This document shows, in pieces, positions 158 through 56,628 of a stretch of 60,563 bases of DNA. Position 1 is the stretch's first letter. Each line of letters starts with the position of its first letter. The stretch is taken from assembly GCA_028712095.1 (NCBI GenBank), contig JAQTQU010000001.1:1-60563 (forward strand). The letters run 5' to 3'. Origin of the DNA: Candidatus Peribacteraceae bacterium (GTDB lineage: Bacteria > Patescibacteriota > Gracilibacteria > Peribacterales > Peribacteraceae). Both the position numbers and the translations under genes were made by a program. The notes under the pieces were generated by a model. That model was given only the letters and a program-made list of their open reading frames with translations, ran no database searches and was not told where the DNA came from.

Positions 158-1315
158 TCAATTCTCAGGGATCTGCAGCTTGCCCAGCATGCGCATGAAC
201 GCCGTTTCGGGGTTATGCAGCTGGCTACCGCAGTGCATGGTGAATCGCTGAAAATGCTTCGGCGTGATGATGAAGGCGCCGCGCGTCGTGCAGGTGGAAG
301 TGGTTTCGTCATAGAGGATCGTCCACGTGCGGTCGACGATTTCATCCGAGAGAATCTGTACGTTGGCAGCCGCGCGCAGGGCGTCGATGGCGTCGGCGGC
401 CCTGTCGTGGTCGAAACCCGTGAGCGAATAATCCGTCTCGATGCAGGCATTCCAGCCCCAGCACGTTCGTTGCGGCCCGACGAAGAGTTGCCAGCGCGCA
501 GGCAGCTTCGGCAGGATCGTCCCGTCGAACGTGCCGCGGGTCATGAGGTGCGGGGTTGGCCAGGAGCTGGGGTAGGAGAGCGCGTAGCCGAGATCCTCAT
601 TGCGCGCCTCAACCCAGGTGACGGGGTTGGCCACCTCCACTTCGTCGAGGGCGATACGCTGCGCGGGGGGTTGCTGCGACGGAAGTTTCAGGAGTCGTGC
701 AAGCATCTCGGCCACCTCGCCGCGGGTGAGGATGTGCGCATGGTCCTGCGCGGTCGGCGGAATGGCTCCCGCCGTATCCATATACGCGATGTAGGGCTTG
801 TACCATTCTTTGCCCAATAGCTCCAGATCGGGGATGTTGACCGGTGCCAATTTGAAGGCGACCGAGAGGATCTTGGATCCTTCATCGAGGGTGATCGGAC
901 GGTCGGGACGGAAACTGCCGTCCCCGTAGCCCGACACGAAGCCGTACGACCACGCCACACACACGGACGGCGCATACCACGCGTCCGGCGTCACATCCGA
1001 AAACGGCATGCCGAGGCCGAATTTCTGCAATGCGGATGCATCGGTGAGACATCCGTCAATCAGTGTCTGCGGCGCCAGCGCCTGTACGATCATTTTGGTG
1101 AACTCTGAGCGGGTGACAGCGGATTGGGGCCAGAAGACGCGGCGCTCGCCGGGCACGATGAAGCCCTGCACGATGTCGCGCTGCCTGAGGAGCTCAATGG
1201 ATTCGGCATAGGGATGGGTGTCCGGTACATCGGCGAAGAACATCGCCGCGGCGGCACCGGGCACGCATCCGAGGATGACGATGGCGAGCGAGACGATCCA
1301 GCGAAGCTGTCGCAT
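158..1315 (-). CDS. secreted SLH-domain protein
   Basis: 385-aa ORF. N-terminal signal peptide (IVSLAIVILGCVPGAAAA). SLH-type repeats: FADVPDTHPYAESIELL, FSDVTPDAWYAPSVCVAWSYGFVSGYGDGSFRPDRPIT. The C-terminal half is unassigned. Confidence 0.8.
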   Translation of the reverse strand: MRQLRWIVSLAIVILGCVPGAAAAMFFADVPDTHPYAESIELLRQRDIVQGFIVPGERRVFWPQSAVTRSEFTKMIVQALAPQTLIDGCLTDASALQKFGLGMPFSDVTPDAWYAPSVCVAWSYGFVSGYGDGSFRPDRPITLDEGSKILSVAFKLAPVNIPDLELLGKEWYKPYIAYMDTAGAIPPTAQDHAHILTRGEVAEMLARLLKLPSQQPPAQRIALDEVEVANPVTWVEARNEDLGYALSYPSSWPTPHLMTRGTFDGTILPKLPARWQLFVGPQRTCWGWNACIETDYSLTGFDHDRAADAIDALRAAANVQILSDEIVDRTWTILYDETTSTCTTRGAFIITPKHFQRFTMHCGSQLHNPETAFMRMLGKLQIPEN

Positions 1316-2338: not shown

Positions 2339-5300
2339 CTACAACTTCTTCAACCTCGCCAAACGCACCGTCACGTCCGATCCGTCAATATCCACGGTGA
2401 CCGGGCTGCCGTCATTCTCCTGCAGCACAGCATGCGTTTCCTGCGCGATCACGTTGCCATGTTCCTGCAGAACGTCTTGCAGGCCGTCGATCTTGAGTGC
2501 GATGGAATCGGCGAAGTGCAACCCCGCATCCTTGCGGATTTTCTGCACTGCACGGATGAGATCGCGTGCGAGTCCTTCGCGCTTGAGCGCGGCGGTGACG
2601 GTTGTTTCCATGCTCACGACAATGCCCTTATCTGCAGCGATATCCGCTCCTTCGCGGCCGCGGTAGGTGATGGGCGCCTCGTCGGGGGCGAGCACTTCAT
2701 CCAGAATGAGCACGGCACCGTCCTCCCGCACGGTGAAGTCACCCGCCTTGCCGGCGCGGATGATCTCCTGCACGCGTGCGCCAAGTCGTGGGCCCGCCTT
2801 GCGCGCATCCACCTGCGCGAACGGCTGCGCCAGCGCTCCGGGATCGGCGGCAAATTCCAGATCTTTCACGTTCAATTCATTCTTGAGCAGGTCGCGGTCT
2901 TCTTCGGTAAGCGTGATTGTTGCGAGGGTCGGCGGCAGGGCGACCACGGCGCGAGCGAGCGGTTGGCGAACTTTGATCTTTTTTGCCCCGCGGATGCCGT
3001 GACCGAGCGAGACGATCAACCGAAGCAGACGATGGCGGTCGATGAGGGAACGTTCTTCATCGGTGAGTTGTTTGCAGTCCGGCCAGTCGGTCAGGTGCAC
3101 CGAGCCGTGATCCTCGGGCACCAGATTCACGTAAATCGCATCGGTGATGAAGGGGCAGAACGGGGCCAGCGTCTGGCAGACCGTGAGGAGCACGTCGTGG
3201 AGCGTTGCGAGCGCATCCGTCTGTTCGCCTTCGTGCGTCGAGAGCTCGGCCGATGGGCTCGTATCCTCCTCATCCACCGCGCCTTTGCCGGCAAAGCGGC
3301 GGCGGGAGAGGCGTACATACCAGTTCGTGAGCGCATCAATTGTTTCATGGATTTCACTGCAGGCGGCGGAAAGATCGTAGCGGTCGAGCTCCCGCGTGAT
3401 GCGGTTGACGAGATCCTGCACCTCGGCGCGGATGTATCGGTCCAGCGGATGACTGGAGTGGCGGCGGGTTTCCACCGGTTCGAACTTGGCGGCGTTCGCG
3501 TACGTTACGAAGAAGCTGTAGACATTCCACAACGGCAGCAGCACGGAACGCACGGTTTCCGAAACGAGTGTTTCGGAGAAGCGCAAATCCTCGCCCCGCA
3601 CGGCCGGCGAGCTCATCAGCGTGAAGCGCACGGCGTCCGCCCCGTGACGATGCACCACTTCGGTCGGCTCGGGATAATTCTTGAGGCGCTTGCTCATCTT
3701 CTTGCCGTCTTCGGCCAGCACGATGCCGTTGACGATACAGTTCAGGAATGCGGGTTTCTGGTAGAGGGCCGTCGACAGGATCATGAGGGTGTAGAACCAT
3801 CCGCGTGTCTGATCCATGCCCTCGGCGATGAAGTCGGCAGGGAAGCCGGGGGGGAAGGACTTGGGACTTGGGGCTTGGGACTTGAGACCTCGGGAGCGGT
3901 AAGCGAAGGGGAAGTGGCTCTGCGCGTACGGCATGGAGCCGGATTCGAACCAGCAATCCAGCACCTCGGGGATGCGTCGCATGAGGGCGGGCAGGCGCAG
4001 GTCCAGTGCTTCGGCGTTCCTGGCTTCAATGGCGGCCATTTCCGCCAGCGAGAGATTCTCGACCAGTGCCTGCAGGCATTTCATCGGTCCGCCGTGGCAG
4101 GCCACGAGCACGCGCTTGCCCGGATATTCCGCGCGGATACGTTGCAGGACTTTTTCCATGCGCTGCACGAATGCCTCAAAGCTTTCGCCACCTGGAGGAG
4201 TCTGCGGAGAAAATCCTGGGCTGGCGACTTCGCCACGGGGGAGCAGCGTCACATAGTCCTTGCCGGGCTTGCCGGTCCACTCGCCCGTGTCGCGTTCGTT
4301 CAGTTCTTTCCACTTGGCCGCATGCGGCACCTTCAGTTCCGCGCTGAGGATTTCGGCCGTTTCGACGGCGCGCTTCAGATCCGACGAAATGATGAGATCG
4401 AATTTCCGCTTCTTCAGTTTTTTGGATAGTGTCCGTACCTGTGCCCTCCCCGTCTCGTTGAGGAGCGAATCGATGTTACCGCCGTTCACGAGATTCTGCT
4501 TATTGAGGTCCGTTTCCCCGTGACGGACCAGTGTCAGTTGAATGTCGCTCTTCTGCTGCGATGCGCTCCACGTGATGTCATCCACGATGTGCTTGTGCAG
4601 GTCGAGTTGCGATTGCGTGCGATGATCCCAGAAGAAGGTCACGGGCTCGGCGTACCGCGGGTACGGCCGGTGATTCAGTTTCATGGGATCTTCCTGTGTG
4701 AAGAAGTGTTGGATGTTCTGCAGAGGATCGGCGTGCGTGACGATCACGATGTGGCCGCCGCGGTGCAGTGGGAGGATTTCTGCAAGGAACGCACTGATGC
4801 GCTCGTGCACGGCGCCAAATGTCTCCATGCCCGGAAAGTGGTAGATGCTCTCGGGCGTTTTCGTTTCGAGCTTGTGCGCCCTTCTCGCCTTGACGAAGGT
4901 TAAGTCCGAGAAATCGACGGTCTTACCCTCGTACTCCCCGAAGATCACTTCGTGCAGGCGCTCGTCCACGATCAGAGGCGCCCCTGTCTTCTTGGCGATG
5001 ATCGCCGCCGTTTCTTTCGTCCGGTCTAAGGGCGAGCAGTAGATGGCGGAGATTGCTCCGGCATTCAGGTAGTCCGCAGCGGACGCTGCTTGTTTCTTGC
5101 CCGTTGCCGTCAGGTGCGTGCCCGGACACGTGCCCTGATAGATCGGAATCAAATTGCCCTCGCTCTCGCCGTGCCGCAGCACCGATACCTTGGTGAAGCG
5201 AATTCTGTTCTGCGCCATCAGTTCATCGCGGCTTTCGATCACCGTCAGGTCCTTCGTTTCGTTGCAGCGCCAGATGGGGAGGGGAGTGCCCCAGTAACGG

Positions 5301-6760
5301 TTGCGGCTGATCGCCCAGTCACGCGCACCCTCCAGCCATTTGCCGAAGCGCCCGTCGCGCACGTGCGCGGGAACCCACGTGGTTTTGGCATTCGATGCGA
5401 GAATGTCATCCTTGATCTTGGTGACGTTCACGAACCACGAGCTCGTGGCGTAGTTGAGCAGGGGCGTTTCACACCGCCAGCAGTGCGGGTAGCTGTGGCG
5501 GATTGTTTCCCTGCGCCAGATGAGCCCTTTCTTGTGGAAATCCTCAATGAGCCGCTTCTCCCCGTCTTCCACGTACATACCGGCGTAGGGCCCGGCCTCC
5601 GCTCCGAAGTGGCCGTTCATCTGCACATCCATGACGATGGGAAGCTTGTTTTTCTTTGCCGCTTCCATGTCGATCTCGCCGTAGGAGCCGTTGATCGTCA
5701 CGATGCCGGTTCCCTCCGACGGATCCACGTAGTCTGCGGCGAAGATGTGGTAGACATGGGGATTTTTTTTCACTTCCGGAATCTCCGCGTACCAGTCCGC
5801 AATGTGTTCGTAGGATTTGCCGACCAGTTTTTTGCCGGGGAATTCATCAATGATTTCGTACTGTTCCGTCCCTTTCATCACTTCAGCAACGCGGCTTTTC
5901 ACCATGATGAGGTTTTCATTTCCTGTCCGGACACTCACGTACGTGGCATCCGGCTTGATGGAGAGCCCCATCGTGGAGAGCGTGCTCCACGGCGTGGTGG
6001 TCCAGGCGAGCACGAAGGTGTGCTTCTCGTCTTTGAGTTTGAACTTCCACGTGACGGCGGTGTCATTGATATCTTTGTATCCCTGCGTCACTTCGAAGTT
6101 GGCAAGGGGGGTTTCGCAGCGGGGACAGATCTGCATGGCTTTGCGGCCTTCATAGATCAGATCTTTCTCATGGAGCTCACTGAACACCCACCAGATCGAT
6201 TCCATGTACTCCGGGTCCATGGTGCGGTAGTCATGGTCCATGTCCACCCACCGGCCCATGCGTTCCACCACGGTCCGCCAATCCTTCGTGTAGCGCTGCA
6301 CCGATCCGCAACACAGGGCGTTGAACGCATCCACGCCCATCGCGTCGATCTGCTGATGGTTGGTGATGTTGTGCTCTTTTTCAATCAGATTCTCGACGGG
6401 CAGCCCGTGGCAGTCCCAGCCGAATCTCCTCTCCACGTATTTTCCCCGCATCGTCTGGTACCGGGGGATGACATCCTTGATCGTGCCGGCGAGCAGGTGC
6501 CCGTAGTGGGGCAGGCCCGTGGCGAAGGGCGGACCGTCGTAGAACGAAAATGTTTCCCCTTTGCCTCCCACGGGGCCATCCAGCAGATCGCCCGTCCCTT
6601 CCGAACGCAGTCTCAGGCTCCTCTTGAAGATATCCTCCTCCTGCCAGTAGCGGAGAATGCCCTCCTCGAGTTCGGGCAGCCGTTGCCTGGGGTCTACGGG
6701 GTCGAACACGTCAAAAGCGTACCACACTCTCCGGACTCCGTGCTGCCGGAAGGGCGGCAA
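2339..6760 (-). CDS. ileS: isoleucine--tRNA ligase with two inserted histidine-phosphatase domains
   Basis: 1473-aa ORF. Class I motifs present: PHYGHLL (HIGH), KMSKR (KMSKS), WAISRNRYWGTPLPIW, VLDCWFESGSMPY, GMDQTRGWFY. The ORF-track start at 6760 is TTG. An in-frame GTG at 6709 (MFDPVDPRQRLPELEEGILRYW) looks like the real start. Confidence 0.95.
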   Translation of the reverse strand: MPPFRQHGVRRVWYAFDVFDPVDPRQRLPELEEGILRYWQEEDIFKRSLRLRSEGTGDLLDGPVGGKGETFSFYDGPPFATGLPHYGHLLAGTIKDVIPRYQTMRGKYVERRFGWDCHGLPVENLIEKEHNITNHQQIDAMGVDAFNALCCGSVQRYTKDWRTVVERMGRWVDMDHDYRTMDPEYMESIWWVFSELHEKDLIYEGRKAMQICPRCETPLANFEVTQGYKDINDTAVTWKFKLKDEKHTFVLAWTTTPWSTLSTMGLSIKPDATYVSVRTGNENLIMVKSRVAEVMKGTEQYEIIDEFPGKKLVGKSYEHIADWYAEIPEVKKNPHVYHIFAADYVDPSEGTGIVTINGSYGEIDMEAAKKNKLPIVMDVQMNGHFGAEAGPYAGMYVEDGEKRLIEDFHKKGLIWRRETIRHSYPHCWRCETPLLNYATSSWFVNVTKIKDDILASNAKTTWVPAHVRDGRFGKWLEGARDWAISRNRYWGTPLPIWRCNETKDLTVIESRDELMAQNRIRFTKVSVLRHGESEGNLIPIYQGTCPGTHLTATGKKQAASAADYLNAGAISAIYCSPLDRTKETAAIIAKKTGAPLIVDERLHEVIFGEYEGKTVDFSDLTFVKARRAHKLETKTPESIYHFPGMETFGAVHERISAFLAEILPLHRGGHIVIVTHADPLQNIQHFFTQEDPMKLNHRPYPRYAEPVTFFWDHRTQSQLDLHKHIVDDITWSASQQKSDIQLTLVRHGETDLNKQNLVNGGNIDSLLNETGRAQVRTLSKKLKKRKFDLIISSDLKRAVETAEILSAELKVPHAAKWKELNERDTGEWTGKPGKDYVTLLPRGEVASPGFSPQTPPGGESFEAFVQRMEKVLQRIRAEYPGKRVLVACHGGPMKCLQALVENLSLAEMAAIEARNAEALDLRLPALMRRIPEVLDCWFESGSMPYAQSHFPFAYRSRGLKSQAPSPKSFPPGFPADFIAEGMDQTRGWFYTLMILSTALYQKPAFLNCIVNGIVLAEDGKKMSKRLKNYPEPTEVVHRHGADAVRFTLMSSPAVRGEDLRFSETLVSETVRSVLLPLWNVYSFFVTYANAAKFEPVETRRHSSHPLDRYIRAEVQDLVNRITRELDRYDLSAACSEIHETIDALTNWYVRLSRRRFAGKGAVDEEDTSPSAELSTHEGEQTDALATLHDVLLTVCQTLAPFCPFITDAIYVNLVPEDHGSVHLTDWPDCKQLTDEERSLIDRHRLLRLIVSLGHGIRGAKKIKVRQPLARAVVALPPTLATITLTEEDRDLLKNELNVKDLEFAADPGALAQPFAQVDARKAGPRLGARVQEIIRAGKAGDFTVREDGAVLILDEVLAPDEAPITYRGREGADIAADKGIVVSMETTVTAALKREGLARDLIRAVQKIRKDAGLHFADSIALKIDGLQDVLQEHGNVIAQETHAVLQENDGSPVTVDIDGSDVTVRLARLKKL

Positions 6761-9988: not shown

Positions 9989-12883
9989 TTAGGGACTGCG
10001 CTTTTTTGCCGTGTTCACGATGAGTGGCAGCGCTGCGCCCAATGCCACAATGGTGCCAGCCAGGAAGGTGAGGGATGCAACCTGATGCATGAAGATTGCC
10101 TGTCCGATGATGGTTGTGAAAATCAGCAGAAAAGAGAATCGCAAAACGAAATCAATTTCCCGATGGGAGAGGAGGTAGTAGTAGATGTAGTACGGAAGTC
10201 CCGCAAAGAAAATACTGAAGAGGATCATGCGTGCCATGACGGGTGCAGCGTACCGCAGCAGATGTGCCGAGGGCAGAAGAGGAAGGGCCAGGAGCGTGCA
10301 GAAGAACGAGAGGATGAAGAAGTACTGCGCAACGCGCACATCAACGTGTTCCAGTCGCTTGTACCGTTCACTGGCAATGGAGAACACCGTGAATGCCACA
10401 ATGGCGACGAAGGTGAAGAATATGTCAACGAGTGTCCAGGAAGGAGTCGAGAAAATCAGCAACAGGATACCGACGATGAAACATGCCCAGGCAGCAAGCA
10501 TGGTCTTCCAGCGCTTACGATTGACGATGGTCGTAAGCAGAAAACCCGAAGCCGTCATGGGGATGGTGTAGTGTGAGGGGAGTGTCCGTTCCAGTGAGGC
10601 ATAGGTGAAAATCGCAACGAAGAACAGAGAAATGACCGACAGCCAGAGTGTGCGGCTGCGCAGCGGGAGGGAGGCATAGCGCAGCGGCGAGTGCAGCCGT
10701 GCCCAGACCAGCAGCAGACTGCTCATTCCCAGGAGGGAAAAGAAGCGGATGATCGTGAGGTCGAGCGCGGCAATGTGATGCGTCTTCAGGAGCAGATGGG
10801 CGAAAATGGGGTCGAATCCCCAGAGGGCGAAAATCAAAATAACCGTGACCACCTGTCTTGCCACGGAGTAGGCGGGGACCACGCGTACATGCCCGGCACC
10901 CACGGCTCGCAATTCAGTGGCGATGAACTGCTGTTCCTCCGTGGAGAGGGCGAGACGCGCGATCATTTTCGCATGCTGGTTGATGGTGGGCAGGATCCGC
11001 ACATCCCCCAGCGTGACGCCGTACTTTTCCGCCAGAAAGACGAAGCGATTGAGCAGGTCGTGGATGGACATTGACGGAAGAGAGAAGTGCACCGAGCACA
11101 GAGTCTTCTCCGGTGAGAGATTGCCGCGCGAACGCGAGGACCGGAAAATGGCAGCAATGGCGACCGACGGTTGCAGATGGCCGTCGGCAACGGCGATGAA
11201 GGCTCCATCCAGCGAGGTATAGCCGAGGGTGCGGATACCCTTGAGCAGGCTCTCCTCTTTGAATTCCTTCAGGTACCCCCGCGCCTGTTTGGTCATGGCC
11301 TCCTGCAGAATCCTCTTGCCGTTTTCGATTTTCTGCTGGCGTGATGCGGATCCCAGCAGGGAACGGATTGCGGCGATTGCCACACCGGTATGCACCCACT
11401 CCAGCCACTCGCGCGTTACCGTGGGCTGGCTTGCAAGCTCCAGCGAGAGTGAGGCGGAGTCGGAGAGCGGAGAGAAGAATGGTGCATCTTTTCCGTTGAT
11501 TTTGATTGTTTTCGTTCTGAGAGCTTTTTCCTTATAGAGGTAGAACGCGCCGTCCAGTGCGGTTGCTCCGGTGGGGAGCTGGATGGTCGTATCATCCGGA
11601 CCATAAATGAAGATGGATTTACCGAGGATGTCGCTTTGCAGGCTGTCCCAGAATTCCTGGCTCTTGTCCGCCGTATCTTTGGAGAGCGGGGCGATACGTT
11701 CGGTCCATGGCAGGTACTCCATGATGCCGATTGCCTTTTTGTCGAAGCAGAACGTGACGATGCCCCGCTGGGCGTAGGCCTGCATTTCCTGCGTGCGGAT
11801 CTTGCAACGCACACGTGTGCCGTTTTCCAGGATGATGGTTGTGTGCAGGCCGCGGTAGCCGTTGATGGCGGGAGCGTTGATGAAATCCTTGAACGAGAGG
11901 ATTTCGTGCTGCCATTTCTGGTGCAGTACGCCCACGGTGGCATAGCACTGGGGGATGGAAGTGCAGACGAATGCGAAGGTCACATCCGAACGGTCGCTCT
12001 TGGTCTCCGTTTCTGTGTCCAGGCGTGCACGGAGATGATCCCATGATTTGCGTTCCACCCGCACGAGTACATCGGACGGCAGCGGCTCCGGTTCGTTGTA
12101 CAGTGCTTCGCGCATGGCATCCAACACCGTGGCGGCCTGCCGTTCGTTCCGGTCGCGCAGTTGTGTTAAGAGGGCGAAGGTCTCGGGCTCCAGCACGGCC
12201 ATACAGAGCGCTTCCAATTCGTCGCTCAGGTCATGCATGCTCATCCGCTCCGCGATTTTCACGTAGATGTCCATCGTCTCCTGTGCAAACGAGATCTGCC
12301 GGTCCTTTGCGAGAAATTCGACCGTGCGCATGTTGTGCAGACGATCGGCCAGCTTGATCACCATAATGCGCACGTCTTCCTGCATCAGCAGCACCATCTT
12401 GCGCAGGGATTCAATTTCCTCGTCGAGTGTGGGGTGTTGTCGCACCGCCTCGTCATCGAGCTTGGTCATGCCTCCGATCAGCGCCGCAGCCGTGTGGCCG
12501 AAACGCTGTTCGATCAGATCGAGGGTGAGATCGGTATCCTCCAATGCGTCGTGGAGGAGGGCGGCGACGAGTGAATCCACGCCTGCCCCCATTTCCGCGA
12601 TCAGGAGAGCAACAGCGATGGGGTGCGTGACGTAGGGCTCTCCGGACTTGCGCACCTGCCCTTCATGGGCGCTCAGGCACAGATCAAACGCACGGTGCAC
12701 GCGTTCACGGTCTGCAGGCGAGAGGTGCCGGAGGAAGGATTGGAATTCCTGCCACTGCATAGATGAAGGTACAGTGTACCCGCTTTTCTGGGCGAAGTGG
12801 AGCGCATTTTCCGCTCCGGAAAGGCGTTGCAGAGCGTTCTCTTCCTGTTCACGTTTTCCACTTGATACTGCACCCGATGGCAT
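9989..12883 (-). CDS. RelA/SpoT-homolog (HD hydrolase, synthetase-like, TGS, ACT-like) fused to a C-terminal 10-TM DMT/EamA-like domain
   Basis: Motifs: HEGQVRKSGEPYVTHP..LLHDALEDT, KLADRLHNMRT, GYRGLHTTI, KIRTQEM, and TGS-like IYGPDDTTIQLPTGATALDGAF. The last 288 aa (9992..10855) are 10 hydrophobic helices. The ATG at 12760 (MQWQEFQSFL) would avoid a 35-nt overlap with the upstream gene. Confidence 0.9.
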   Translation of the reverse strand: MPSGAVSSGKREQEENALQRLSGAENALHFAQKSGYTVPSSMQWQEFQSFLRHLSPADRERVHRAFDLCLSAHEGQVRKSGEPYVTHPIAVALLIAEMGAGVDSLVAALLHDALEDTDLTLDLIEQRFGHTAAALIGGMTKLDDEAVRQHPTLDEEIESLRKMVLLMQEDVRIMVIKLADRLHNMRTVEFLAKDRQISFAQETMDIYVKIAERMSMHDLSDELEALCMAVLEPETFALLTQLRDRNERQAATVLDAMREALYNEPEPLPSDVLVRVERKSWDHLRARLDTETETKSDRSDVTFAFVCTSIPQCYATVGVLHQKWQHEILSFKDFINAPAINGYRGLHTTIILENGTRVRCKIRTQEMQAYAQRGIVTFCFDKKAIGIMEYLPWTERIAPLSKDTADKSQEFWDSLQSDILGKSIFIYGPDDTTIQLPTGATALDGAFYLYKEKALRTKTIKINGKDAPFFSPLSDSASLSLELASQPTVTREWLEWVHTGVAIAAIRSLLGSASRQQKIENGKRILQEAMTKQARGYLKEFKEESLLKGIRTLGYTSLDGAFIAVADGHLQPSVAIAAIFRSSRSRGNLSPEKTLCSVHFSLPSMSIHDLLNRFVFLAEKYGVTLGDVRILPTINQHAKMIARLALSTEEQQFIATELRAVGAGHVRVVPAYSVARQVVTVILIFALWGFDPIFAHLLLKTHHIAALDLTIIRFFSLLGMSSLLLVWARLHSPLRYASLPLRSRTLWLSVISLFFVAIFTYASLERTLPSHYTIPMTASGFLLTTIVNRKRWKTMLAAWACFIVGILLLIFSTPSWTLVDIFFTFVAIVAFTVFSIASERYKRLEHVDVRVAQYFFILSFFCTLLALPLLPSAHLLRYAAPVMARMILFSIFFAGLPYYIYYYLLSHREIDFVLRFSFLLIFTTIIGQAIFMHQVASLTFLAGTIVALGAALPLIVNTAKKRSP

Positions 12884-20140: not shown

Positions 20141-21502
20141 ATGCGCGCATCATTGCGGACGTCTCTCTTGCTCTCCGGAGCGTTCATCACGCTGCTGGCA
20201 ACCGGTGTCACGGCGGCGGAGATTTTTCCGGATGTCCCCGTCGGGCATATTTTCGAAGAACCGATCAACGCGCTGGTGAATGCGGGTGTTCTCACGGGGA
20301 ATCCTGACGGCAGGTTCTACCCCGACCGTCAGGTGAATCGTGCCGAACTGCTCAAGATGCTCTACAAGGCTACGGGCAAGATTCCCGACGCTTCCAGCCG
20401 CGCTTGCTTCTCGGATGTGGAGCGCCTGAGCTGGTACGAGTCCTACGTGTGCGACGCCGCGGCACACCACTACGTGGAAGGGTATTCCGACGGAACGTTC
20501 CGTCCCGCCAATCCCGTGAATCGCGTCGAGGCTCTGAAGATGATCACGCAGGTCATCGGCATTCCGGTGGAGAACATTGGTGAAGATGCCCGTCAGGTGG
20601 TGAAGTTCGTGGATGTGTCGATTTCCGCGTGGTACACCAAGTATCTGTATGCGGCCTACGTGAAGGGGATTCTGCCCATTGCCGGACAGGATACCTCGCG
20701 CTTCTTCCCCGACTGGCCGCTCTTGCGTGGAGAAGCTGCAGCCATGATATTCAACGCGCTCAATACCGATCTCGTTGAGCGTCGCCAGGGCAGCAGCGTG
20801 TCTTCGGCCGCGTCGGCACAGAGCCGCTCTTCGACGGTTGCCGGTTCCTCTTCCTCGTCCAGTGACGCCGCCAGTTTTGACGTGCCGTTCCCCTTCGAGT
20901 CCGCCGGCAAGTTCACAGCGCGCAAATCGGTCACGTACCGGTTCACGCTCGATCATGCCGCCGTCGTTTCCACGGTGGCCGGACTGCAGGCGGGGCAGCC
21001 GGGCAGTATTTCATGCCGACTCTACCTGATGGCGGAATCCGGGTTTTCGTTCGAGTACTTCATGGGCTTTCAGGAGGGGTCGAGCTGCACGCTCAAGACC
21101 GCGCTCAAGCCCGGCAGCTACCAGCTCCAGCTTGCTCCCACGATTGCGGATACCACCTTCAGTGTAAAAGCGGAAACGACGACCACCGGCGACGGGAGCG
21201 ACGGCTTCGGTGAGGCGCAGACCCTTCCTTTCAATCTGGCTCGTACGGGAACGCTTGCCCCCGGTGACTATCAGGACTGGTTCAAGTTCACGGTCTCCGC
21301 CACGCAGACCCTGCAGATCTCGGTCACGGATAGTACGCAGCTCACGTGCCTGATTTACCCCATGGAGGATGTGGATCTGTACGGCTTCTCGGGACCGTCC
21401 TGCGGTCAGCGCTACGAATACCAGCCGGGCTCGTACGTCATTGCCGTCGGACGGATGTCTCCTGCGGATGCGCGGCAGACGTATACGGTCCTCGCTCAGT
21501 AA
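20141..21502 (+). CDS. secreted SLH-domain protein with pre-peptidase-C-terminal (PPC)-like domain
   Basis: 453 aa. Signal peptide. SLH repeats: FPDVPVGHIFEEPINALVNAGVLTGNPDGRFYPD, FSDVERLSWYESYV, FVDVSISAWYTKY. C-terminal GDYQDWFKFTV is PPC-like. Confidence 0.8.
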   Translation: MRASLRTSLLLSGAFITLLATGVTAAEIFPDVPVGHIFEEPINALVNAGVLTGNPDGRFYPDRQVNRAELLKMLYKATGKIPDASSRACFSDVERLSWYESYVCDAAAHHYVEGYSDGTFRPANPVNRVEALKMITQVIGIPVENIGEDARQVVKFVDVSISAWYTKYLYAAYVKGILPIAGQDTSRFFPDWPLLRGEAAAMIFNALNTDLVERRQGSSVSSAASAQSRSSTVAGSSSSSSDAASFDVPFPFESAGKFTARKSVTYRFTLDHAAVVSTVAGLQAGQPGSISCRLYLMAESGFSFEYFMGFQEGSSCTLKTALKPGSYQLQLAPTIADTTFSVKAETTTTGDGSDGFGEAQTLPFNLARTGTLAPGDYQDWFKFTVSATQTLQISVTDSTQLTCLIYPMEDVDLYGFSGPSCGQRYEYQPGSYVIAVGRMSPADARQTYTVLAQ

Positions 21503-24958: not shown

Positions 24959-27409
24959 GTGCCCCTACTGTCCTCGTCATACCATGTCCCTATGGCGATG
25001 TTCCGCCTCGCACCGGATTGTCTGCTACAATTCCGTTCCGTGAGACGGATAATCGTGTTTTTCCTCCTTGGGCTTGTGATCAGTGCTACCCCCGCCTTCG
25101 CCGAGGTTCCGGCGGCCGGGGCTGCGCAACCGGATACATTTCTCGATGTTGTCGGGCATCCGCAGGCGCCGCAGATCGAGATGCTCCGCATCCACGGTAT
25201 CGTGCAGGGGTACGAGTACGGGCTCTACCGTCCCGACATTCTGATCAACCGCGCGGAATTCCTGAAGATCCTCATGCTCGCGGTGTACGGACAGGAAGCC
25301 GCCGGTTCCGCGACTGCATGCTTTGCGGACTTCACGGGCGAGCCGCAGTGGTTCTGGGGGGCCGCCTGTACCGCAAAAGAGAACGGTATTCTCACGGGAT
25401 ACCCGGATGGCACATTCCGCGGCGCGCAGACGGTGAATCTGGTCGAGGCGCTCGCCATGGCGGAACGCGCGTGGCAGATGCCGGCCCCGCACTACTTTCA
25501 TGAACCGTCCTACTGGTACGACCCGTACTTCGACGCGGTACTGGGCAGCGGCATTGCCGAGTACTTTCTGCGCGATCCCGCCCACCTGCTCACACGCGGA
25601 GATGCCGCATGGATCCTGATCGCACTCGGGCAGAACATTGCCACCGTCGAAGCGCCCGTATCCTCCTCCTCTGCCTCGTCGGTTTCTTCGGTTTCCTCTG
25701 CCTCTTCTGCTTCCTCCGTCTACGTCCACAATGTCTGCGGCAACGGGGTCAAAGAGGGCACGGAGCAGTGTGATGACGGCAATGCCGAGGACGGGGACGG
25801 ATGCAGCTCGCTCTGCATTATCGTGCCCGAGCCGGTGCAGCACTCCGCGATCCGGCTGGATCAGCGTGCCATCGGTACGGATACGGTCGCCGGCGGATCC
25901 AGCCAGACGGTCCTCTTCTCGTTCGATGCCAATGCGCGTTGGCAGGATGCCATTCTCACGGGGCTCAAGTTTGATGCGGAATACGGGGCCTTCACCGTCG
26001 CGGTGAACTACCGTCTCTATGACGATGGCGATGGCGACGGCAAACCGGAGACGCTGGTGGGTACGGGGCTGGTGCGCGACGACGTGCTTTCCTTCTCGGG
26101 CCTGGGTGCGCGGATTTTCACCAGCCGCGGCAAACGTTTCGAAATCCGGGCGGATCTGGTGCAGACCACGGGCAGCGTGGCTCTGGGGTTCCGTACGTCC
26201 GACAGCGCGTACGTCGAAGCCGTCGGCGCCATCGACGGACGCGAGCTCACCGGCATCCGTACCGATCAGGGGAGTTGCCCCCGTACCGACAACTGCTGGA
26301 TTGCGGTGTACACGCTCGACGCCACTTCCATTTCGCTGACAGAGCGCGGCAATCTGTTCGTTACGGCGGCATCGCAACCGGTTCGTAATCACGAGCTCCT
26401 TGCGGGGGCCGGCACCGCAGATCTGTTGCGTGTAAGTTTCCGCGCGACGGACGAAGACATCCGCGTCCGCAGGATGACGATTGCGGGAGCGACCGATGCA
26501 GTCACTGAACTTCAGTTCTTCGATCCGGCGGCCGCTGTGCCGTTCGCCACGGCGCACACATCCGGCTGCCACGAACCGTCTGCCGGCAAGTTCTGCACGG
26601 CCGTGGACTTCACGGTGCGCAAAGATGTACTGCGGGACGTGATCGTGCGGGCGTTGCTCAAGTCCGCGGATGACGGGGCACGGAGCGGCGATACCATTGC
26701 GCTTACACTCTCCGCCTCTGTTGCGGGTCCCGACAATGCCGTGGAGGCCACAGGCGTCGCCTCGCAGGAGGATCTCGTGCAGAATGACGGAGATTTCAGC
26801 GCGGAGGGAGAAGTGTTCATCGGTCGCGCCGCGGCAGGAGCAAACAACGCGATCACGGGTCCCGTGCACGATGTGGTTCATGCCGCGCTCGCAAGTATTG
26901 CCAATGCCTCCGACGATCCGGATGGAACGGCGGTCCCCACTGGCTTGCGGACCATCGGCGTTTTCCGCTTTGTCGCGCAGCCGAAACCTGCAGTCGCCCG
27001 GGCCACCCGCTCCGTCGCGCTCATCACGCTCTCCTTCGACGTGACGGCCATCAACGTGCAGTTCTTCTCCACCGGCAGTTTTGTGATGGTGAACATGATT
27101 GCGCCATCCGTTTCGACGCCCTGCACCGCCGCGTCCCGCACGGGGGTCATCCGCGTGACGTGTTCCGGTTTTGCTGCTTACGGTGTGGATACGCTCATTC
27201 CCTTCGGCGGTTCCATCACTGTGGGATTGCGGGGGTTCATCGAGAGTCCTCAAGTGGTGACGGGCACAAGTATGCTGCAGGTGAGCCTCACGTCCCTCAA
27301 TAACCGCGATGCGGCGGGAGGGGTGACGTGGAATGACGGGACCAATGTTTTCCGGTGGGTGGATATTCCCGAAACGGACGTGCAGTCCACGCTCTACAGG
27401 TTGCCGTAA
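24959..27409 (+). CDS. large secreted SLH-domain protein with a Cys-rich (Myxococcus-type) repeat and a beta-rich C-terminal region
   Basis: 816 aa. Signal peptide (IIVFFLLGLVISATPAFA). SLH repeats: FLDVVGHPQAPQIEMLRIHGIVQGY, FADFTGEPQWFWGAACTAKENGILTGYPDGTFRG. Ser-rich linker. Cys-rich repeat: CGNGVKEGTEQCDDGNAEDGDGCSSLC. Confidence 0.8.
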   Translation: MPLLSSSYHVPMAMFRLAPDCLLQFRSVRRIIVFFLLGLVISATPAFAEVPAAGAAQPDTFLDVVGHPQAPQIEMLRIHGIVQGYEYGLYRPDILINRAEFLKILMLAVYGQEAAGSATACFADFTGEPQWFWGAACTAKENGILTGYPDGTFRGAQTVNLVEALAMAERAWQMPAPHYFHEPSYWYDPYFDAVLGSGIAEYFLRDPAHLLTRGDAAWILIALGQNIATVEAPVSSSSASSVSSVSSASSASSVYVHNVCGNGVKEGTEQCDDGNAEDGDGCSSLCIIVPEPVQHSAIRLDQRAIGTDTVAGGSSQTVLFSFDANARWQDAILTGLKFDAEYGAFTVAVNYRLYDDGDGDGKPETLVGTGLVRDDVLSFSGLGARIFTSRGKRFEIRADLVQTTGSVALGFRTSDSAYVEAVGAIDGRELTGIRTDQGSCPRTDNCWIAVYTLDATSISLTERGNLFVTAASQPVRNHELLAGAGTADLLRVSFRATDEDIRVRRMTIAGATDAVTELQFFDPAAAVPFATAHTSGCHEPSAGKFCTAVDFTVRKDVLRDVIVRALLKSADDGARSGDTIALTLSASVAGPDNAVEATGVASQEDLVQNDGDFSAEGEVFIGRAAAGANNAITGPVHDVVHAALASIANASDDPDGTAVPTGLRTIGVFRFVAQPKPAVARATRSVALITLSFDVTAINVQFFSTGSFVMVNMIAPSVSTPCTAASRTGVIRVTCSGFAAYGVDTLIPFGGSITVGLRGFIESPQVVTGTSMLQVSLTSLNNRDAAGGVTWNDGTNVFRWVDIPETDVQSTLYRLP

Positions 27410-32196: not shown

Positions 32197-33609
32197 ATGA
32201 AGCCGCAACCGGCATGCTGCGCTATGCTCTTCATCATGTGCAGATGCCCCGATCGCAACGTTTGGGTGTCGGTTGTGCTCCTCTGGGGATTGCTGGCGCC
32301 TTGCGTACATGCGCTGACCGCCCCGCCCTTCCCCGACATGGAGACATCGTGGTACGGGTATCAGCAGAGTGTCGCGTACCTCAAAGACAAGGGCTCCATT
32401 GGCGGGTACCCAGACGGGCTCTTTCGTCCGCAGGCCACGATCAACCGCGCGGAGTTCCTCAAGCTCGTCTTCCGTTCCAAGGGAACAGTGCAGCCCGCCA
32501 CGCGTGACTGTTTCGCCGATGTGCCGTCTGATGCGTGGTTCGCGCCGTTCGTGTGTGCGGCCAAACAGCGTGGCATTATTCAGGGCTACAGCGTGGGCTC
32601 GCGCTCTGTCTTCAGGCCCGATCAGCCCATCATCTTTGCCGAGGCGATCAAGATGGCGGTGCTGTCGTACGGCAGCGAGATCGCCGAGGGCAGCGGAGAA
32701 CAGTGGTACCGGCCGTACGTGGAGGAGCTCGACCGGCAGAACATCCTCGCGCGCTCTTCGTACATTCCGTGGGCGCCCATCACGCGCGAGCGCGCGGCCG
32801 ATCTGATCGCCCGCTACGTGCGGCATGATGAAGACCGCGTCATTCCCAATCTCTCACCCGGCTGCGGCAAATCCGCCCTTAACCCTTCGCTCACGCTCAC
32901 CGTGGGCGGGCAGGAGAGAACGTACCTGCTCACGCGCCCCGCCTCTGCCGATGCCAATACGCCCTCGCCGCTGATCGTGGCGTTTCATGGTCGCACCAAC
33001 AGTAATGATCAGGTGCGTGCCTACTTCGGTCTGGACGATGCCGCGTCCGGATATTTCATCGCCTACCCGTCCGGTATTCCCACCGGCAACGGCAGTTACT
33101 CGTGGTCGGATCCCGGTGACAAGGCGCAGGAGCTGCGCGATTACGCGTTCTTCGACGCCCTGGTGCGCGAAATCGGCGAGAGCGTGTGCATCGACTTAGA
33201 CCGCATTTTCGTCGTCGGGCACTCACTGGGCGCGTGGTTTGCCAATTCGGTGGCATGTGCGCGCGGGGGCGTAGTGCGCGCGTCGGCAACCGTGGGCGGG
33301 TCCACGACCATGCAGGAATGCACAGGGCCGACCGCGGCCATGATCATCAATAATCCCAAAGACACGCTTTCGTCTGCGGTGACGGCCGAGTCGATGCGCG
33401 ATATCCGTATCAGCGCCAATACGTGTTCGACGAAGAGCTCAACAACGGAGCCTGCGGCGCTCTCGTGCGTGCAGTACGCCGATTGCCCGTTAAACCCCGT
33501 CGTCTTCTGCCCGCATACCATCAATCAGGATTACAAGGGTAATTACTATCCGCACGTGTGGCCCGATGGTACCGCGCAGGCGATGGTGAAGTTTTTCGGG
33601 GGGTTGTAG
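32197..33609 (+). CDS. secreted SLH-domain esterase (PHB-depolymerase / LpqC-like alpha/beta hydrolase)
   Basis: 470 aa. SLH repeats: FPDMETSWYGYQQSVAYLKDKGSIGGYPDGLFRP, FADVPSDAWFAPFVCAAKQRGIIQGY. Hydrolase part: PLIVAFHGRTNSN and the nucleophile elbow VVGHSLGAW. Confidence 0.8.
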   Translation: MKPQPACCAMLFIMCRCPDRNVWVSVVLLWGLLAPCVHALTAPPFPDMETSWYGYQQSVAYLKDKGSIGGYPDGLFRPQATINRAEFLKLVFRSKGTVQPATRDCFADVPSDAWFAPFVCAAKQRGIIQGYSVGSRSVFRPDQPIIFAEAIKMAVLSYGSEIAEGSGEQWYRPYVEELDRQNILARSSYIPWAPITRERAADLIARYVRHDEDRVIPNLSPGCGKSALNPSLTLTVGGQERTYLLTRPASADANTPSPLIVAFHGRTNSNDQVRAYFGLDDAASGYFIAYPSGIPTGNGSYSWSDPGDKAQELRDYAFFDALVREIGESVCIDLDRIFVVGHSLGAWFANSVACARGGVVRASATVGGSTTMQECTGPTAAMIINNPKDTLSSAVTAESMRDIRISANTCSTKSSTTEPAALSCVQYADCPLNPVVFCPHTINQDYKGNYYPHVWPDGTAQAMVKFFGGL

Positions 33610-43439: not shown

Positions 43440-43618
43440 TTCCTGTCCGCAAGTGTCATCTTGCGTCAGGGGCGATGAGATGGGGAACGGCTCGCAAGGC
43501 ATCTCCATGCAAGGAGATTTCAGATCGCCCCGACGATGAGCTGCCGCCACGGTCACCCGACCGTGCTGCCCTCTGTCAAAAACCTCACAAATCCTTGAAG
43601 GGAGTGGCAATATCCTTA

Positions 43619-43655
43619 CCCCAGCCACGTCAGCTTAAGCTGACGTGGCCAGCCA
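43619..43655 (+). repeat. 37-bp direct repeat DR2, identical to DR1
   Basis: Exact 37/37 match to 38593..38629. It lies in the upstream region of the giant gene. Confidence 0.95.

Positions 43656-54463: not shown

Positions 54464-54467
<4 letters not shown>
54180..54467 (+). CDS. DUF5661-like small protein
   Basis: 95 aa. GLDFSTVEFDLEQFRMGMDTELEHG...NDDPVLTGNIALAHLREFPDYYTRL matches my recollection of DUF5661. Confidence 0.55.

Positions 54468-56628
<2,161 letters not shown>

What the first reader, a model, noticed from the sequence alone, without database searches (positions are those of the whole stretch)
3986..5206. IleRS with two histidine-phosphatase (PGAM-like) domains inserted in its catalytic body
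The ileS ORF is about 400 aa longer than a normal type-2 IleRS.

The extra length is two complete His-phosphatase domains:
- Domain 1 spans about aa 519-717. Motifs: VSVLRHGESEGN, CSPLDRTKETA, FGEYEG, VIVTHADP.
- Domain 2 spans about aa 738-926. Motifs: LTLVRHGETDLN, SSDLKRAVETA, ERDTGEWTG, GGES, LVACHGG.

They sit on either side of the conserved IleRS segment QLDLHKHIVDDITW. That places them between WAISRNRYWGTPLPIW and RRIPEVLDCWFESGSMPY.

Both insertions are in frame and keep the catalytic Arg-His-Gly and the second His. The IleRS HIGH and KMSKS motifs are intact. This looks like a functional chimera, not a decayed gene.

A third, stand-alone paralog of the same phosphatase family is at 54464..55144. 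I know of no described aminoacyl-tRNA synthetase with embedded PGAM-type phosphatases. Possible roles include hydrolysis of a phosphorylated nucleotide, alarmone or antibiotic near the active site, but that is pure speculation.
Basis: partly seen in the sequence, partly recalled or inferred. Interest (0 to 1): 0.78.

Follow-up and report, generated by a model that had tools for sequence, protein, structure and literature searches.

The report
IleRS with two embedded histidine phosphatases
The isoleucyl-tRNA synthetase gene of this uncultured Peribacteraceae (CPR) bacterium really carries two intact phosphatase domains inside a surface loop region of the enzyme, and it belongs to a large family of such synthetases in CPR bacteria that I could not find described in any searchable paper and whose phosphatase function is unknown.

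Summary
Window 2339..6760 (-) is one uninterrupted ileS ORF. It is 1473 aa from the TTG start, or 1456 aa from the GTG start used in the NCBI records. Two strong His_Phos_1 domains (Pfam E 1e-36 and 4e-45) flank the conserved DLHKH hairpin of the CP3 subdomain.

It is not an assembly chimera:
- The identical protein sits under two NCBI accessions.
- The double insert recurs as open 1465-1604 aa ORFs in at least 8 other Peribacteria MAGs, with conserved synteny.
- Both inserts evolve under purifying selection (dN/dS 0.11, like the core).

The gene is not unique. At least 124 clusters (50% identity) of CPR class-Ia synthetases carry 1-4 such domains. Most are IleRS and a few are ValRS. The domains sit in four different loops, and the Arg-His-Arg-His catalytic tetrad is kept in 214 of 214 site-A domains.

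Neither domain reaches the cutoff of any function-specific model (CobC, dPGM, PspA, SixA). Nine literature searches found no description of the architecture. IMG auto-annotates a near-identical protein as "IleRS/phosphoglycerate mutase".

Best reading: a working type-2 IleRS with two tethered, active phosphomonoesterases. The tether appears to be selected, but the substrate is unknown. It is a new variant of a known kind (synthetase with accessory domains). Interest is about 0.7.

The parts
2339..6760 (-). ileS ORF. It is 1473 aa from the TTG start. The NCBI records start at the GTG at codon 18, giving CDS 2339..6709 and 1456 aa.
5270..6760 (-). N-terminal part of IleRS (aa 1-497): first half of the Rossmann fold with HIGH (HYGH, aa 85-88, window 6497-6508), the CP1 editing domain, CP2, and the CP2-CP3 linker ending in WAISRNRYWGTPLPIW.
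   Evidence: domain names from PMC7955072 and PMC7191050
4634..5194 (-). Insert D1 (aa 523-709). This His_Phos_1 domain sits at site A, the CP3 hairpin loop before the DLHKH motif. Catalytic residues are R529, H530, R580, E604 and H676.
   Evidence: Pfam E 1.3e-36; local HMM envelope; catalytic census; AF2 pLDDT mostly 85-98
4544..4633 (-). Native CP3 segment kept between the two inserts (aa 710-739), including QLDLHKHIVDDITW.
   Evidence: aligns to the DLH(R/K)xxVD segment of all type-2 IleRS
3986..4543 (-). Insert D2 (aa 740-925). This His_Phos_1 domain sits at site B, the second CP3 loop just before MRRIPEVLDCWF. Catalytic residues are R746, H747, R797, E822 and H889.
   Evidence: Pfam E 4.1e-45; AF2 core pLDDT 68-91, cap region below 50
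2339..3985 (-). C-terminal part of IleRS (aa 926-1473): second half of the Rossmann fold with CWFESG and KMSKR (aa 1021-1025, window 3686-3700), Anticodon_1, and the DUF5915 C-terminal domains.
3836..3913 (-). Small extension of about 20 aa (aa ~950-975, AYRSRGLKSQAPSPKSFPPG) in the loop between SMPYAQxHFPF and FPADFIAEG. This is 'site C', where other CPR IleRS carry His_Phos, GNAT or alpha/beta-hydrolase domains.
54464..55144 (-). Stand-alone His_Phos_1 gene (226 aa). It is a distant paralog, 24-27% identical to D1 and D2, and lies next to atpD. It is not part of the chimera.

Best explanation
This is the resident chromosomal isoleucyl-tRNA synthetase of a Candidatus Peribacteraceae bacterium (CPR/Patescibacteria). 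No second ileS is present in the 60-kb window, and I infer that it is the only one in the genome.

**Anatomy.** It is a type-2 (eukaryote-like) IleRS. Its peripheral CP3 subdomain carries two different short histidine phosphatase domains of the PhoE/CobC class, nested in two neighbouring loops. Site A lies before the DLHKH hairpin segment and site B lies after it.

**Shown.**
- The gene is real and inherited vertically.
- The synthetase motifs are intact.
- Both phosphatase domains keep every catalytic residue and are under purifying selection as strong as on the synthetase core.
- The same domain family has been fixed in four different surface loops of CPR IleRS, occasionally in ValRS, and in one to four copies.

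**Inferred.**
- The protein charges tRNA-Ile normally, and each insert is an active phosphomonoesterase using the usual phospho-histidine mechanism (His530 and His747 as nucleophiles).
- What is selected is the physical tether to the synthetase, not a precise docking at the active site.

**Mechanism I commit to (about 0.35 on its own).** The tethered phosphatases remove a phosphate from something the synthetase meets during aminoacylation. My first candidate is a phosphorylated or pyrophosphorylated tRNA 3' end. The second is an adenine nucleotide.

The simpler alternative is almost as likely: independent housekeeping phosphatases riding in permissive loops.
For: **Real, single ORF**
- The frame is open, all motifs are present and composition is normal.
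- The identical 1456-aa protein is held under two NCBI accessions on two contigs.
- The double insert is present as open 1465-1604 aa ORFs in L003, L004, L007, L009 and L011. It is also present, cut by contig ends, in L005, L006 and L008. Identity to the window is 48-81%.
- Neighbours are conserved: RelA/SpoT upstream and a holin-like gene downstream.

**Still an IleRS**
- TIGR00392 scores 785 bits against a cutoff of 621.
- The best solved relatives are type-2 IleRS.
- The AF2 model has pTM 0.81 and its core superposes on 6ldk and 1ile with TM 0.73.
- HIGH, GWDCHG and KMSKR are invariant across orthologs.

**Active phosphatases**
- Pfam E-values are 1e-36 and 4e-45.
- R, H, R and H are kept in 214 of 214 site-A domains, and the Glu in 204 of 214. 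All five residues are kept in 29 of 30 site-B domains.
- dN/dS is 0.108 for both D1 and D2, against 0.07-0.13 for the core.
- D1 is better conserved across Peribacteria (49-67%) than the CP1 editing domain (34-39%).

**Tether under selection**
- 124 representative clusters match at E<1e-30.
- Inserts occur at sites A, B, C and D and in the combinations A+B, A+D, B+C and C+D.
- A ValRS carries the domain in the equivalent CP3 zinc knuckle, and one ValRS fragment has four copies.
- Domains cluster by site, and architectures follow the IleRS-core tree.

**Why CP3 tolerates inserts**
- CP3 is a peripheral subdomain whose topology differs between species (PMC7191050).
- Its start, the CP2-CP3 linker, lines the tRNA A76 pocket (PMC7955072).
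Against: - No biochemical data exist for any member of the family.
- The tools give no model coordinates, so the distance and orientation of the phosphatase active sites relative to the synthetic site, the editing site or bound tRNA are unknown.
- The four insertion sites are not all close to the catalytic pocket in sequence. Site D lies at the junction of the stem-contact fold and the anticodon-binding domain. This argues against precise active-site coupling.
- Site C also hosts unrelated enzymes (GNAT, alpha/beta-hydrolase), which fits generally permissive loops.
- The embedded domains are not basic (median pI 6.5), so they carry no general signature of RNA binding.
- Their closest solved and stand-alone relatives are small-molecule phosphatases at only 30-39% identity.
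- No function-specific model reaches its cutoff.
- D2 is modelled with only moderate confidence.
Confidence: 0.55

Rival explanations
1. Hitch-hiking enzymes. The two domains are ordinary broad-specificity metabolic phosphatases with no mechanistic link to aminoacylation. They sit in permissive loops of an essential, constitutively expressed gene. This guarantees their expression and retention in a streamlined genome.
For: - The closest relatives are generic small-molecule phosphatases: PspA, PhoE, CobC, TIGAR and glucosyl-3-phosphoglycerate phosphatase.
- The same loops also host GNAT and alpha/beta-hydrolase domains.
- Four different loops are used, and not all lie near the active site.
- CP3 is peripheral and structurally variable.
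- The domains are not basic.
Against: - The same family has been captured or retained repeatedly in the same host protein and its closest paralog ValRS. Up to four copies occur, and every copy keeps its catalytic residues.
- This is hard to explain without an advantage of being attached to the synthetase.
- The genome also keeps a stand-alone His_Phos gene.
Confidence: 0.3
2. Non-catalytic module. The domains bind a phosphorylated ligand, or they dimerise as many PGAM-family proteins do. In this way they regulate or oligomerise IleRS without turning over substrate.
For: - Most Peribacteria orthologs have RHA instead of RHG in D1.
- One ortholog (L008) has lost the second His of D2.
- PGAM-family proteins commonly form dimers (my own knowledge).
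Against: - Arg, His, Arg and His are conserved in 214 of 214 site-A domains, and the proton-donor Glu in 95%. This pattern is typical of active enzymes and not of pseudo-enzymes.
- The RHA variants still have the nucleophilic His.
Confidence: 0.1
3. Artefact or decay. The ORF is an assembly misjoin, a pseudogene, or a selfish in-frame mobile insertion with no benefit to the host.
For: - Reads cannot be mapped with the tools available here.
- The presence of inserts at several sites, and in tandem copies, superficially resembles a mobile element.
Against: - The identical protein appears in two NCBI records.
- At least 8 independent MAGs have the same double insert, with an open frame and conserved synteny.
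- dN/dS is 0.11 in both inserts.
- D1 and D2 are only 23% identical, and domains cluster by site. The insertions are therefore old and vertically inherited.
- Composition shows no anomaly.
Confidence: 0.03

Closest known systems
Type-2 (eukaryote-like, mupirocin-insensitive type) isoleucyl-tRNA synthetase, e.g. Priestia megaterium IleRS2 (8c8v), yeast (8wnd, 7d5c), Candida (6ldk) and Thermus (1ile)
   Same: - HIGH and KMSKS motifs.
- CP1 editing domain with the WTTTPW motif.
- CP2, Anticodon_1 and the DUF5915 C-terminal domains.
- TIGR00392 scores above its cutoff.
- The model core superposes on these structures.
   Different: - CP3 is expanded from about 65 aa to about 450 aa by two complete phosphatase domains.
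- The CP3 zinc-knuckle cysteines seen in other CPR and Thermus enzymes are lost.
- The residue equivalent to E. coli editing His333 is Thr.
Histidine phosphatase superfamily branch 1, short 'phosphatase' type (PhoE 1h2e, CobC 6nru/6e4b, phosphoserine phosphatase PspA 4ij5, TIGAR 3e9c)
   Same: - The RHG motif with the nucleophilic His, the second Arg, the Glu proton donor and the second His.
- A length of about 185 aa.
- A predicted alpha/beta fold.
   Different: - These domains are nested inside another enzyme instead of standing alone or being fused end to end.
- Neither domain reaches the cutoff of any function-specific NCBIfam model.
- D1 has a Peribacteria-specific cap segment (DFSDLTFVKARRAHKLE...).
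IleRS with an inserted GNAT acetyltransferase (NCBIfam NF040702, ileS_w_GNAT)
   Same: It is a curated precedent for an IleRS that carries a small enzymatic domain inside its body. A CPR relative (P0226) carries a GNAT and a His_Phos domain side by side at site C.
   Different: - The inserted enzyme family is different, and in this window the insertion sites are different.
- The window protein scores 217 bits against a cutoff of 1999, so it is not a member.
Bifunctional RNase H / acid phosphatase (Rv2228c type, NCBIfam NF005567)
   Same: A CobC-like His_Phos domain is joined to a nucleic-acid enzyme. It is among the top NCBIfam matches for both inserts.
   Different: - That protein is an end-to-end fusion and not a nested insertion.
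- Scores are 95-96 bits against a cutoff of 326.
- The partner enzyme is unrelated.
Lineage-specific insertions in class-Ia synthetases (CP1 editing domain; the leucine-specific domain of LeuRS)
   Same: These are domains inserted in loops of the Rossmann-fold body that add a second function next to the synthetic site (general knowledge of the family).
   Different: Those inserts act on aminoacyl-tRNA or tRNA and have no phosphatase chemistry. No link between the His_Phos inserts and tRNA has been shown here.

Membership tests
Isoleucine--tRNA ligase (TIGR00392), type 2 | Whole-protein score above the curated cutoff | tested here: met
   785.1 bits against a cutoff of 621.4, matched in two stretches on either side of the insert
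Isoleucine--tRNA ligase (TIGR00392), type 2 | Class-I signature motifs HIGH and KMSKS, plus the WFESG and DQTRGWF active-site elements | tested here: met
   HYGH at aa 85-88, KMSKR at aa 1021-1025, CWFESG at aa 935 and DQTRGWF are all present. They are invariant in Peribacteria orthologs.
Isoleucine--tRNA ligase (TIGR00392), type 2 | Type-2 C-terminal architecture and closest similarity to type-2 rather than type-1 enzymes | tested here: met
   Anticodon_1 and DUF5915 are present. E-values are 1e-186 to 5e-211 for type-2 and eukaryotic structures, against about 1e-75 for type-1. Foldseek gives the same ranking.
Isoleucine--tRNA ligase (TIGR00392), type 2 | CP1 editing site (Thr-rich motif, conserved Asp) | tested here: met
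   WTTTPWS is present and the equivalent of E. coli D342 is kept. The equivalent of H333 is Thr in the window and in L003.
Isoleucine--tRNA ligase (TIGR00392), type 2 | Isoleucylation of tRNA-Ile | not testable with these tools
   This needs enzyme assays.
Histidine phosphatase superfamily, branch 1 (PF00300) | Profile score above the gathering threshold for each domain | tested here: met
   D1 scores 126.5 bits and D2 scores 154.3 bits, against a threshold of 21.7.
Histidine phosphatase superfamily, branch 1 (PF00300) | Catalytic core: Arg-His(-Gly), second Arg, Glu proton donor, second His | tested here: met
   D1 has R529, H530, G531, R580, E604 and H676. D2 has R746, H747, G748, R797, E822 and H889. 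Family-wide census: 204 of 214 site-A domains and 29 of 30 site-B domains keep all five residues.
Histidine phosphatase superfamily, branch 1 (PF00300) | Phosphatase or mutase activity | not testable with these tools
   This needs enzyme assays.
Cofactor-dependent phosphoglycerate mutase (dPGM), as the IMG name for the cluster mate suggests | Score above the cutoff of a dPGM model, and the dPGM length of about 230-250 aa | tested here: not met
   TIGR01258 gives 26.6 and 55.9 bits against a cutoff of 81.7. NF038349 gives 92 and 60 bits against 225. All other dPGM models are far below their cutoffs. The domains are about 185 aa.
Alpha-ribazole phosphatase CobC (TIGR03162) | Score above the curated cutoff for a single domain | tested here: not met
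   The whole protein scores 199.5 bits against 162.9 only because two domains add up. Scanned separately, D1 scores 90.5 and D2 scores 119.2.
Phosphoserine phosphatase PspA (NF045917) and phosphohistidine phosphatase SixA (TIGR00249) | Score above the curated cutoff | tested here: not met
   PspA gives 84.8 and 67 bits against a cutoff of 350. SixA gives 25.6 bits against 74.5.
IleRS with GNAT insert (NF040702); mupirocin-resistance IleRS MupA/MupB (NF000257/NF000258) | Score above the curated cutoff | tested here: not met
   NF040702 gives 217 bits against a cutoff of 1999. MupA and MupB give 622-623 bits against 1900.
Known anti-phage defence proteins (PADLOC) | Any profile match for D1, D2 or the stand-alone paralog | tested here: not met
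   No match at E <= 0.01.

The most novel reading that the evidence does not exclude
The embedded phosphatases are an on-board repair or immunity module for aminoacylation. They would reverse phosphorylation-type attacks that block charging. Two known attack types fit. Toxic small alarmone synthetases add a pyrophosphate or phosphate to the tRNA CCA 3' end. HipA/HipT-type toxin kinases phosphorylate the Ser of the KMSKS loop. The GNAT and alpha/beta-hydrolase inserts seen in sister CPR IleRS would belong to the same 'self-defending synthetase' theme. The toxin mechanisms come from my own knowledge. Nothing here tests the link.
Probability: 0.12. Interest if true: 0.9.

Novelty: new variant of a known kind. 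Interest (0 to 1): 0.7.

Why it matters
Aminoacyl-tRNA synthetases are among the best-studied enzymes. Their accessory domains are normally for editing, tRNA binding or signalling.

A large, ancient and strongly conserved family of class-Ia synthetases with catalytically intact phosphatases built into the catalytic body would be a new kind of bifunctional synthetase. It occurs in the least understood major bacterial radiation.

The pattern says the attachment itself is useful. The domains appear in four loops, in one to four copies, mostly in IleRS and sometimes in ValRS, and the catalytic tetrad is kept in every site-A domain examined.

Finding the substrate could reveal an unknown step in tRNA or nucleotide maintenance, or in defence of translation in CPR bacteria. 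The question is directly testable with recombinant protein.

Practically, these genes are under-annotated. NCBI calls this one 'class I tRNA ligase family protein'. IMG calls a near-identical one a phosphoglycerate mutase fusion, a label that the profile scores do not support.

Tried and rejected
**1. Split-gene idea, rejected.** The first homolog search returned only 'half' proteins of 700-860 aa. I considered a naturally split IleRS that reassembles through heterodimerising phosphatase domains.
- The tool lists only hits up to 1.75 times the query length (859 aa for a 491-aa query, 495 aa for a 283-aa query).
- The two long-contig examples are adjacent, overlapping gene calls typical of frameshifts.
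- The exhaustive search returns full-length proteins of 1150-1470 aa.

**2. Tandem duplication of one insert, rejected.** D1 and D2 share 23% identity, and each has its nearest neighbours among domains at the same site in other lineages.

**3. The stand-alone paralog as donor of the inserts, rejected.** Identity is 24-27%.

**4. Assigning a specific phosphatase function, not possible.** No NCBIfam equivalog cutoff is reached when the domains are scanned separately.

**5. RNA-binding signature, not found.** The domains are near neutral.

**6. Defence-system profiles, no match.** PADLOC gives nothing.

**7. Literature, nothing found.** Nine full-text searches combined IleRS, aaRS or tRNA synthetase with histidine phosphatase, phosphoglycerate mutase, CPR, Patescibacteria, Peribacteria or the Pfam names. 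None turned up a description of this architecture. The CP3 search served only to define the subdomain. The Peribacteria genome paper does not mention it.

**8. Docking geometry, could not be obtained.** The structure tool returns confidence and secondary structure but no coordinates. The Foldseek search only confirmed the IleRS core.
Full report
**1. The observation**

Window 2339..6760 on the minus strand is one open reading frame of 1473 codons, counted from a TTG. The exact product starting at the GTG at codon 18 (1456 aa, CDS 2339..6709) is held in NCBI under two accessions. Both are named 'class I tRNA ligase family protein [Candidatus Peribacteraceae bacterium]', and one of the two contigs is as long as this window. 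A cluster mate at 90% identity in IMG is named 'isoleucyl-tRNA synthetase/bisphosphoglycerate-dependent phosphoglycerate mutase'.

The finding's coordinates 3986..5206 correspond to aa 519-925.

- Pfam gives tRNA-synt_1 in two pieces, two His_Phos_1 stretches, Anticodon_1 and DUF5915.
- Scanned alone, the two inserts score 126.5 and 154.3 bits against a gathering score of 21.7.
- NCBIfam ileS (TIGR00392) scores 785 against a cutoff of 621.
- Base composition across the inserts is unremarkable.

**2. Where the inserts sit**

phmmer against solved structures aligns residues 22-520 and 926 onward to type-2 and eukaryotic IleRS (human 9w01, yeast 8wnd, Candida 6ldk, P. megaterium IleRS2 8c8v, Thermus 1ile). 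Nothing aligns in between.

Published structures define this stretch as the CP3 subdomain: yeast residues 459-526 and Candida residues 473-534. They describe it as a peripheral element whose topology differs between Candida, Thermus and Staphylococcus enzymes (PMC7955072 and PMC7191050). In human IARS1 it is an exposed protein-protein interface (PMC13439101). The CP2-CP3 linker just before it (ARDWxxSRNRYWG) lines the tRNA A76/reveromycin pocket.

In this protein:
- D1 (aa 523-709) sits in the hairpin loop before the conserved DLHKHxVD segment. I call this site A.
- D2 (aa 740-925) sits in the next loop, just before MRRIPEVLDCWF. I call this site B.
- The zinc-knuckle cysteines that flank these loops in other CPR IleRS are lost in Peribacteria.

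**3. Not an artefact**

A scan of one genome per species found the double insert (a match of about 1480 nt, 48-81% identity) in L003-L009 and L011. All are Peribacter, Peribacteria or Peregrinibacteria MAGs from different studies. The ORFs are uninterrupted and 1465-1604 aa long wherever the contig allows.

Flanking genes are conserved, with a RelA/SpoT homolog upstream and a holin-like membrane protein downstream. The window holds no second ileS.

Between the window and L003, dN/dS is 0.108 for D1 and 0.108 for D2. The synthetase core segments give 0.07-0.13. Across Peribacteria, D1 (49-67% identity) is better conserved than the CP1 editing domain (34-39%).

**4. A large family, not a singleton**

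The first homolog search found more than 100 clusters with tRNA-synt_1 plus His_Phos_1. Named sources include Peregrinibacteria, Parcubacteria lineages, Pacebacteria, Paceibacterota and Minisyncoccia.

The hits looked like half-proteins. That is a length filter of the tool (hits up to 1.75 times the query length), combined with frameshifted gene calls. The exhaustive HMMER search gave 124 representative clusters at E<1e-30, including full-length proteins of 1150-1470 aa.

A local His_Phos HMM plus IleRS landmark motifs sorted the architectures:

| Site | Position | Notes |
|---|---|---|
| A | WGP..DLH | Commonest |
| B | DLH..CWF | |
| C | Loop between SMPYAQxHYPFEN and FPADFIAEG | |
| D | Between the stem-contact fold and the anticodon-binding domain | |

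The combinations A+B (Peribacteria), A+D, B+C and C+D also occur.

Pfam and NCBIfam confirmed further variants:
- P0215 is a true ValRS (973 bits against a cutoff of 704) with the domain between the two CxxC halves of its CP3 zinc knuckle. About six such ValRS clusters exist.
- P0136 is a ValRS fragment with four copies.
- P0226 is an IleRS carrying GNAT plus His_Phos.
- P0231 is an IleRS carrying an alpha/beta-hydrolase plus His_Phos.

Other CPR IleRS (Nealsonbacteria L026, Uhrbacteria L070) and non-CPR type-2 IleRS lack any insert.

**5. Are the phosphatases likely to be active?**

| Residue(s) | Site A | Site B |
|---|---|---|
| First Arg, nucleophilic His, second Arg, second His | 214 of 214 | |
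| Glu proton donor | 204 of 214 | |
| All five residues | 204 of 214 | 29 of 30 |

These counts come from 280 near-complete embedded domains. Site-D domains keep all five residues in 13 of 13 cases. Most Peribacteria orthologs read RHA instead of RHG in D1, and one (L008) lost the second His of D2.

D1 and D2 of the window are 23% identical. Nearest neighbours are overwhelmingly domains at the same site in other proteins (211 of 214 for site A, 25 of 30 for site B). On an IleRS-core tree, the A+B clade is monophyletic, the B-only proteins group together, and the C and D types group nearby. The architectures are therefore old and vertically inherited.

The AlphaFold2 model of aa 22-1110 has pTM 0.81 and mean pLDDT 84.6. 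D1 is confident, D2's core is moderate, and D2's cap region has low confidence. The model's core matches type-2 IleRS structures, and no PDB chain combines IleRS with this fold.

**6. What the phosphatases might do**

Closest solved relatives are small-molecule phosphatases:
- D1 matches PspA (4ij5) and PhoE (1h2e).
- D2 matches CobC (6nru) and TIGAR (3e9c).

The closest stand-alone proteins are generic His_Phos proteins at 30-39% identity. Scanned separately, neither domain reaches any function-specific cutoff. CobC gives 90.5 and 119.2 against 162.9, and dPGM, PspA and SixA are far below. The IMG label 'phosphoglycerate mutase' is therefore not supported.

The domains are not basic (median pI 6.5), and they match no defence-system profile.

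The strongest functional clue is evolutionary. The same family has been fixed repeatedly in one synthetase and its closest paralog, at several loops and in several copies, and always in catalytically intact form. This points to an advantage of being tethered to the synthetase. The variety of sites, and the presence of unrelated enzymes at site C, argue against a precise active-site coupling.

I therefore favour tethered, active phosphomonoesterases acting on something encountered at the synthetase. A phosphorylated tRNA 3' end or an adenine nucleotide are my first candidates, from general knowledge and untested. Independent hitch-hiking enzymes come a close second.

**7. Comparison with what is known, and novelty**

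By every testable criterion the protein is a member of type-2 IleRS, and each insert is a member of histidine phosphatase branch 1. It is not a member of dPGM, CobC, PspA, SixA, ileS_w_GNAT or MupA/B.

NCBIfam's curated ileS_w_GNAT model shows that enzyme-bearing IleRS variants have been noticed. There is no equivalent model for the phosphatase-bearing form.

Nine full-text searches found no paper describing it. The Peribacteria genome paper does not mention it either. The literature library is incomplete, so an existing description cannot be excluded.

I rate it a new variant of a known kind (a synthetase with accessory domains). It is real and widespread, functionally unexplained, and directly testable.

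Noticed in passing
P0215 (1067 aa), P0254-P0257, P0259, P0260; P0136 (1161 aa): Valyl-tRNA synthetases of uncultured bacteria also carry a His_Phos_1 domain, placed between the two CxxC halves of the CP3 zinc knuckle. P0136 is a ValRS fragment with four His_Phos_1 domains: one before WCISRQ and three in tandem after it. The ValRS form is much rarer than the IleRS form (about 6 clusters).
   Followed up: partly
P0226 (1406 aa) and P0231 (1394 aa): Other CPR IleRS combine His_Phos_1 with a GNAT acetyltransferase (P0226, both at site C). P0231 has a Ser_hydrolase/alpha-beta-hydrolase domain at site C and His_Phos at site D. CPR IleRS therefore looks like a hotspot for nested small enzymes. NCBIfam already has a curated 'ileS_w_GNAT' model.
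   Followed up: partly
window 9989-12883 (-), and the upstream ends of L003, L004, L005, L007, L009, L010, L011: A long RelA/SpoT homolog (964 aa; HD_4, RelA_SpoT and RIS domains) lies about 3 kb upstream of ileS on the same strand. This linkage is conserved across Peribacteria loci. Whether the genes are co-transcribed or functionally linked is unknown.
   Followed up: partly
window 56631-57038 (+): A gene for a 23S_rRNA_IVP / bAvd-like four-helix-bundle protein (135 aa, E 1e-34) sits between the ATP synthase beta (55264-56628) and epsilon (57066-57512) genes. This is an unusual place for it. A larger protein with the same domains is also present in the Parcubacteria locus L001.
   Followed up: no
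window aa 226-430 of ileS (about 5471-6085, -), and orthologs L004-L011: The CP1 editing domain is much less conserved among Peribacteria (34-39% identity) than the rest of the enzyme (68-81%) or insert D1 (49-67%). In the window and L003, the residue equivalent to E. coli editing His333 is Thr, and the following APGFG is NGSYG. The WTTTPW motif and the Asp342 equivalent are kept.
   Followed up: partly
L001 6001-9487 and L002 4725-8214: In two long contigs of one JGI sample, the single-insert ileS is called as two overlapping genes, at different places in the two contigs. This looks like frameshift errors, or possibly real frameshifts. Such calls inflate the number of 'partial' IleRS-phosphatase proteins in databases.
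   Followed up: partly
window 485-500 and 730-740 of ileS (aa), compared with L012-L016: The CxxC...CxxC zinc knuckle of CP3 is present in single-insert CPR IleRS and in Thermus. It has been lost in the double-insert Peribacteria enzymes.
   Followed up: partly
window 158-1315, 20141-21502, 24959-27409, 32197-33609, 38784-43628: The window is rich in S-layer-homology (SLH) domain proteins. One is a 1614-aa protein with FG-GAP repeats, Big_5 domains and a C-terminal SLH domain. This suggests an elaborate cell-surface layer in this CPR bacterium.
   Followed up: no
tool behaviour: the search for homologous proteins returned only proteins up to 1.75 times the query length (859, 495 and under 333 aa). 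Queries made of a protein fragment therefore retrieve only fragments or short proteins. This can be mistaken for biology.
   Followed up: yes
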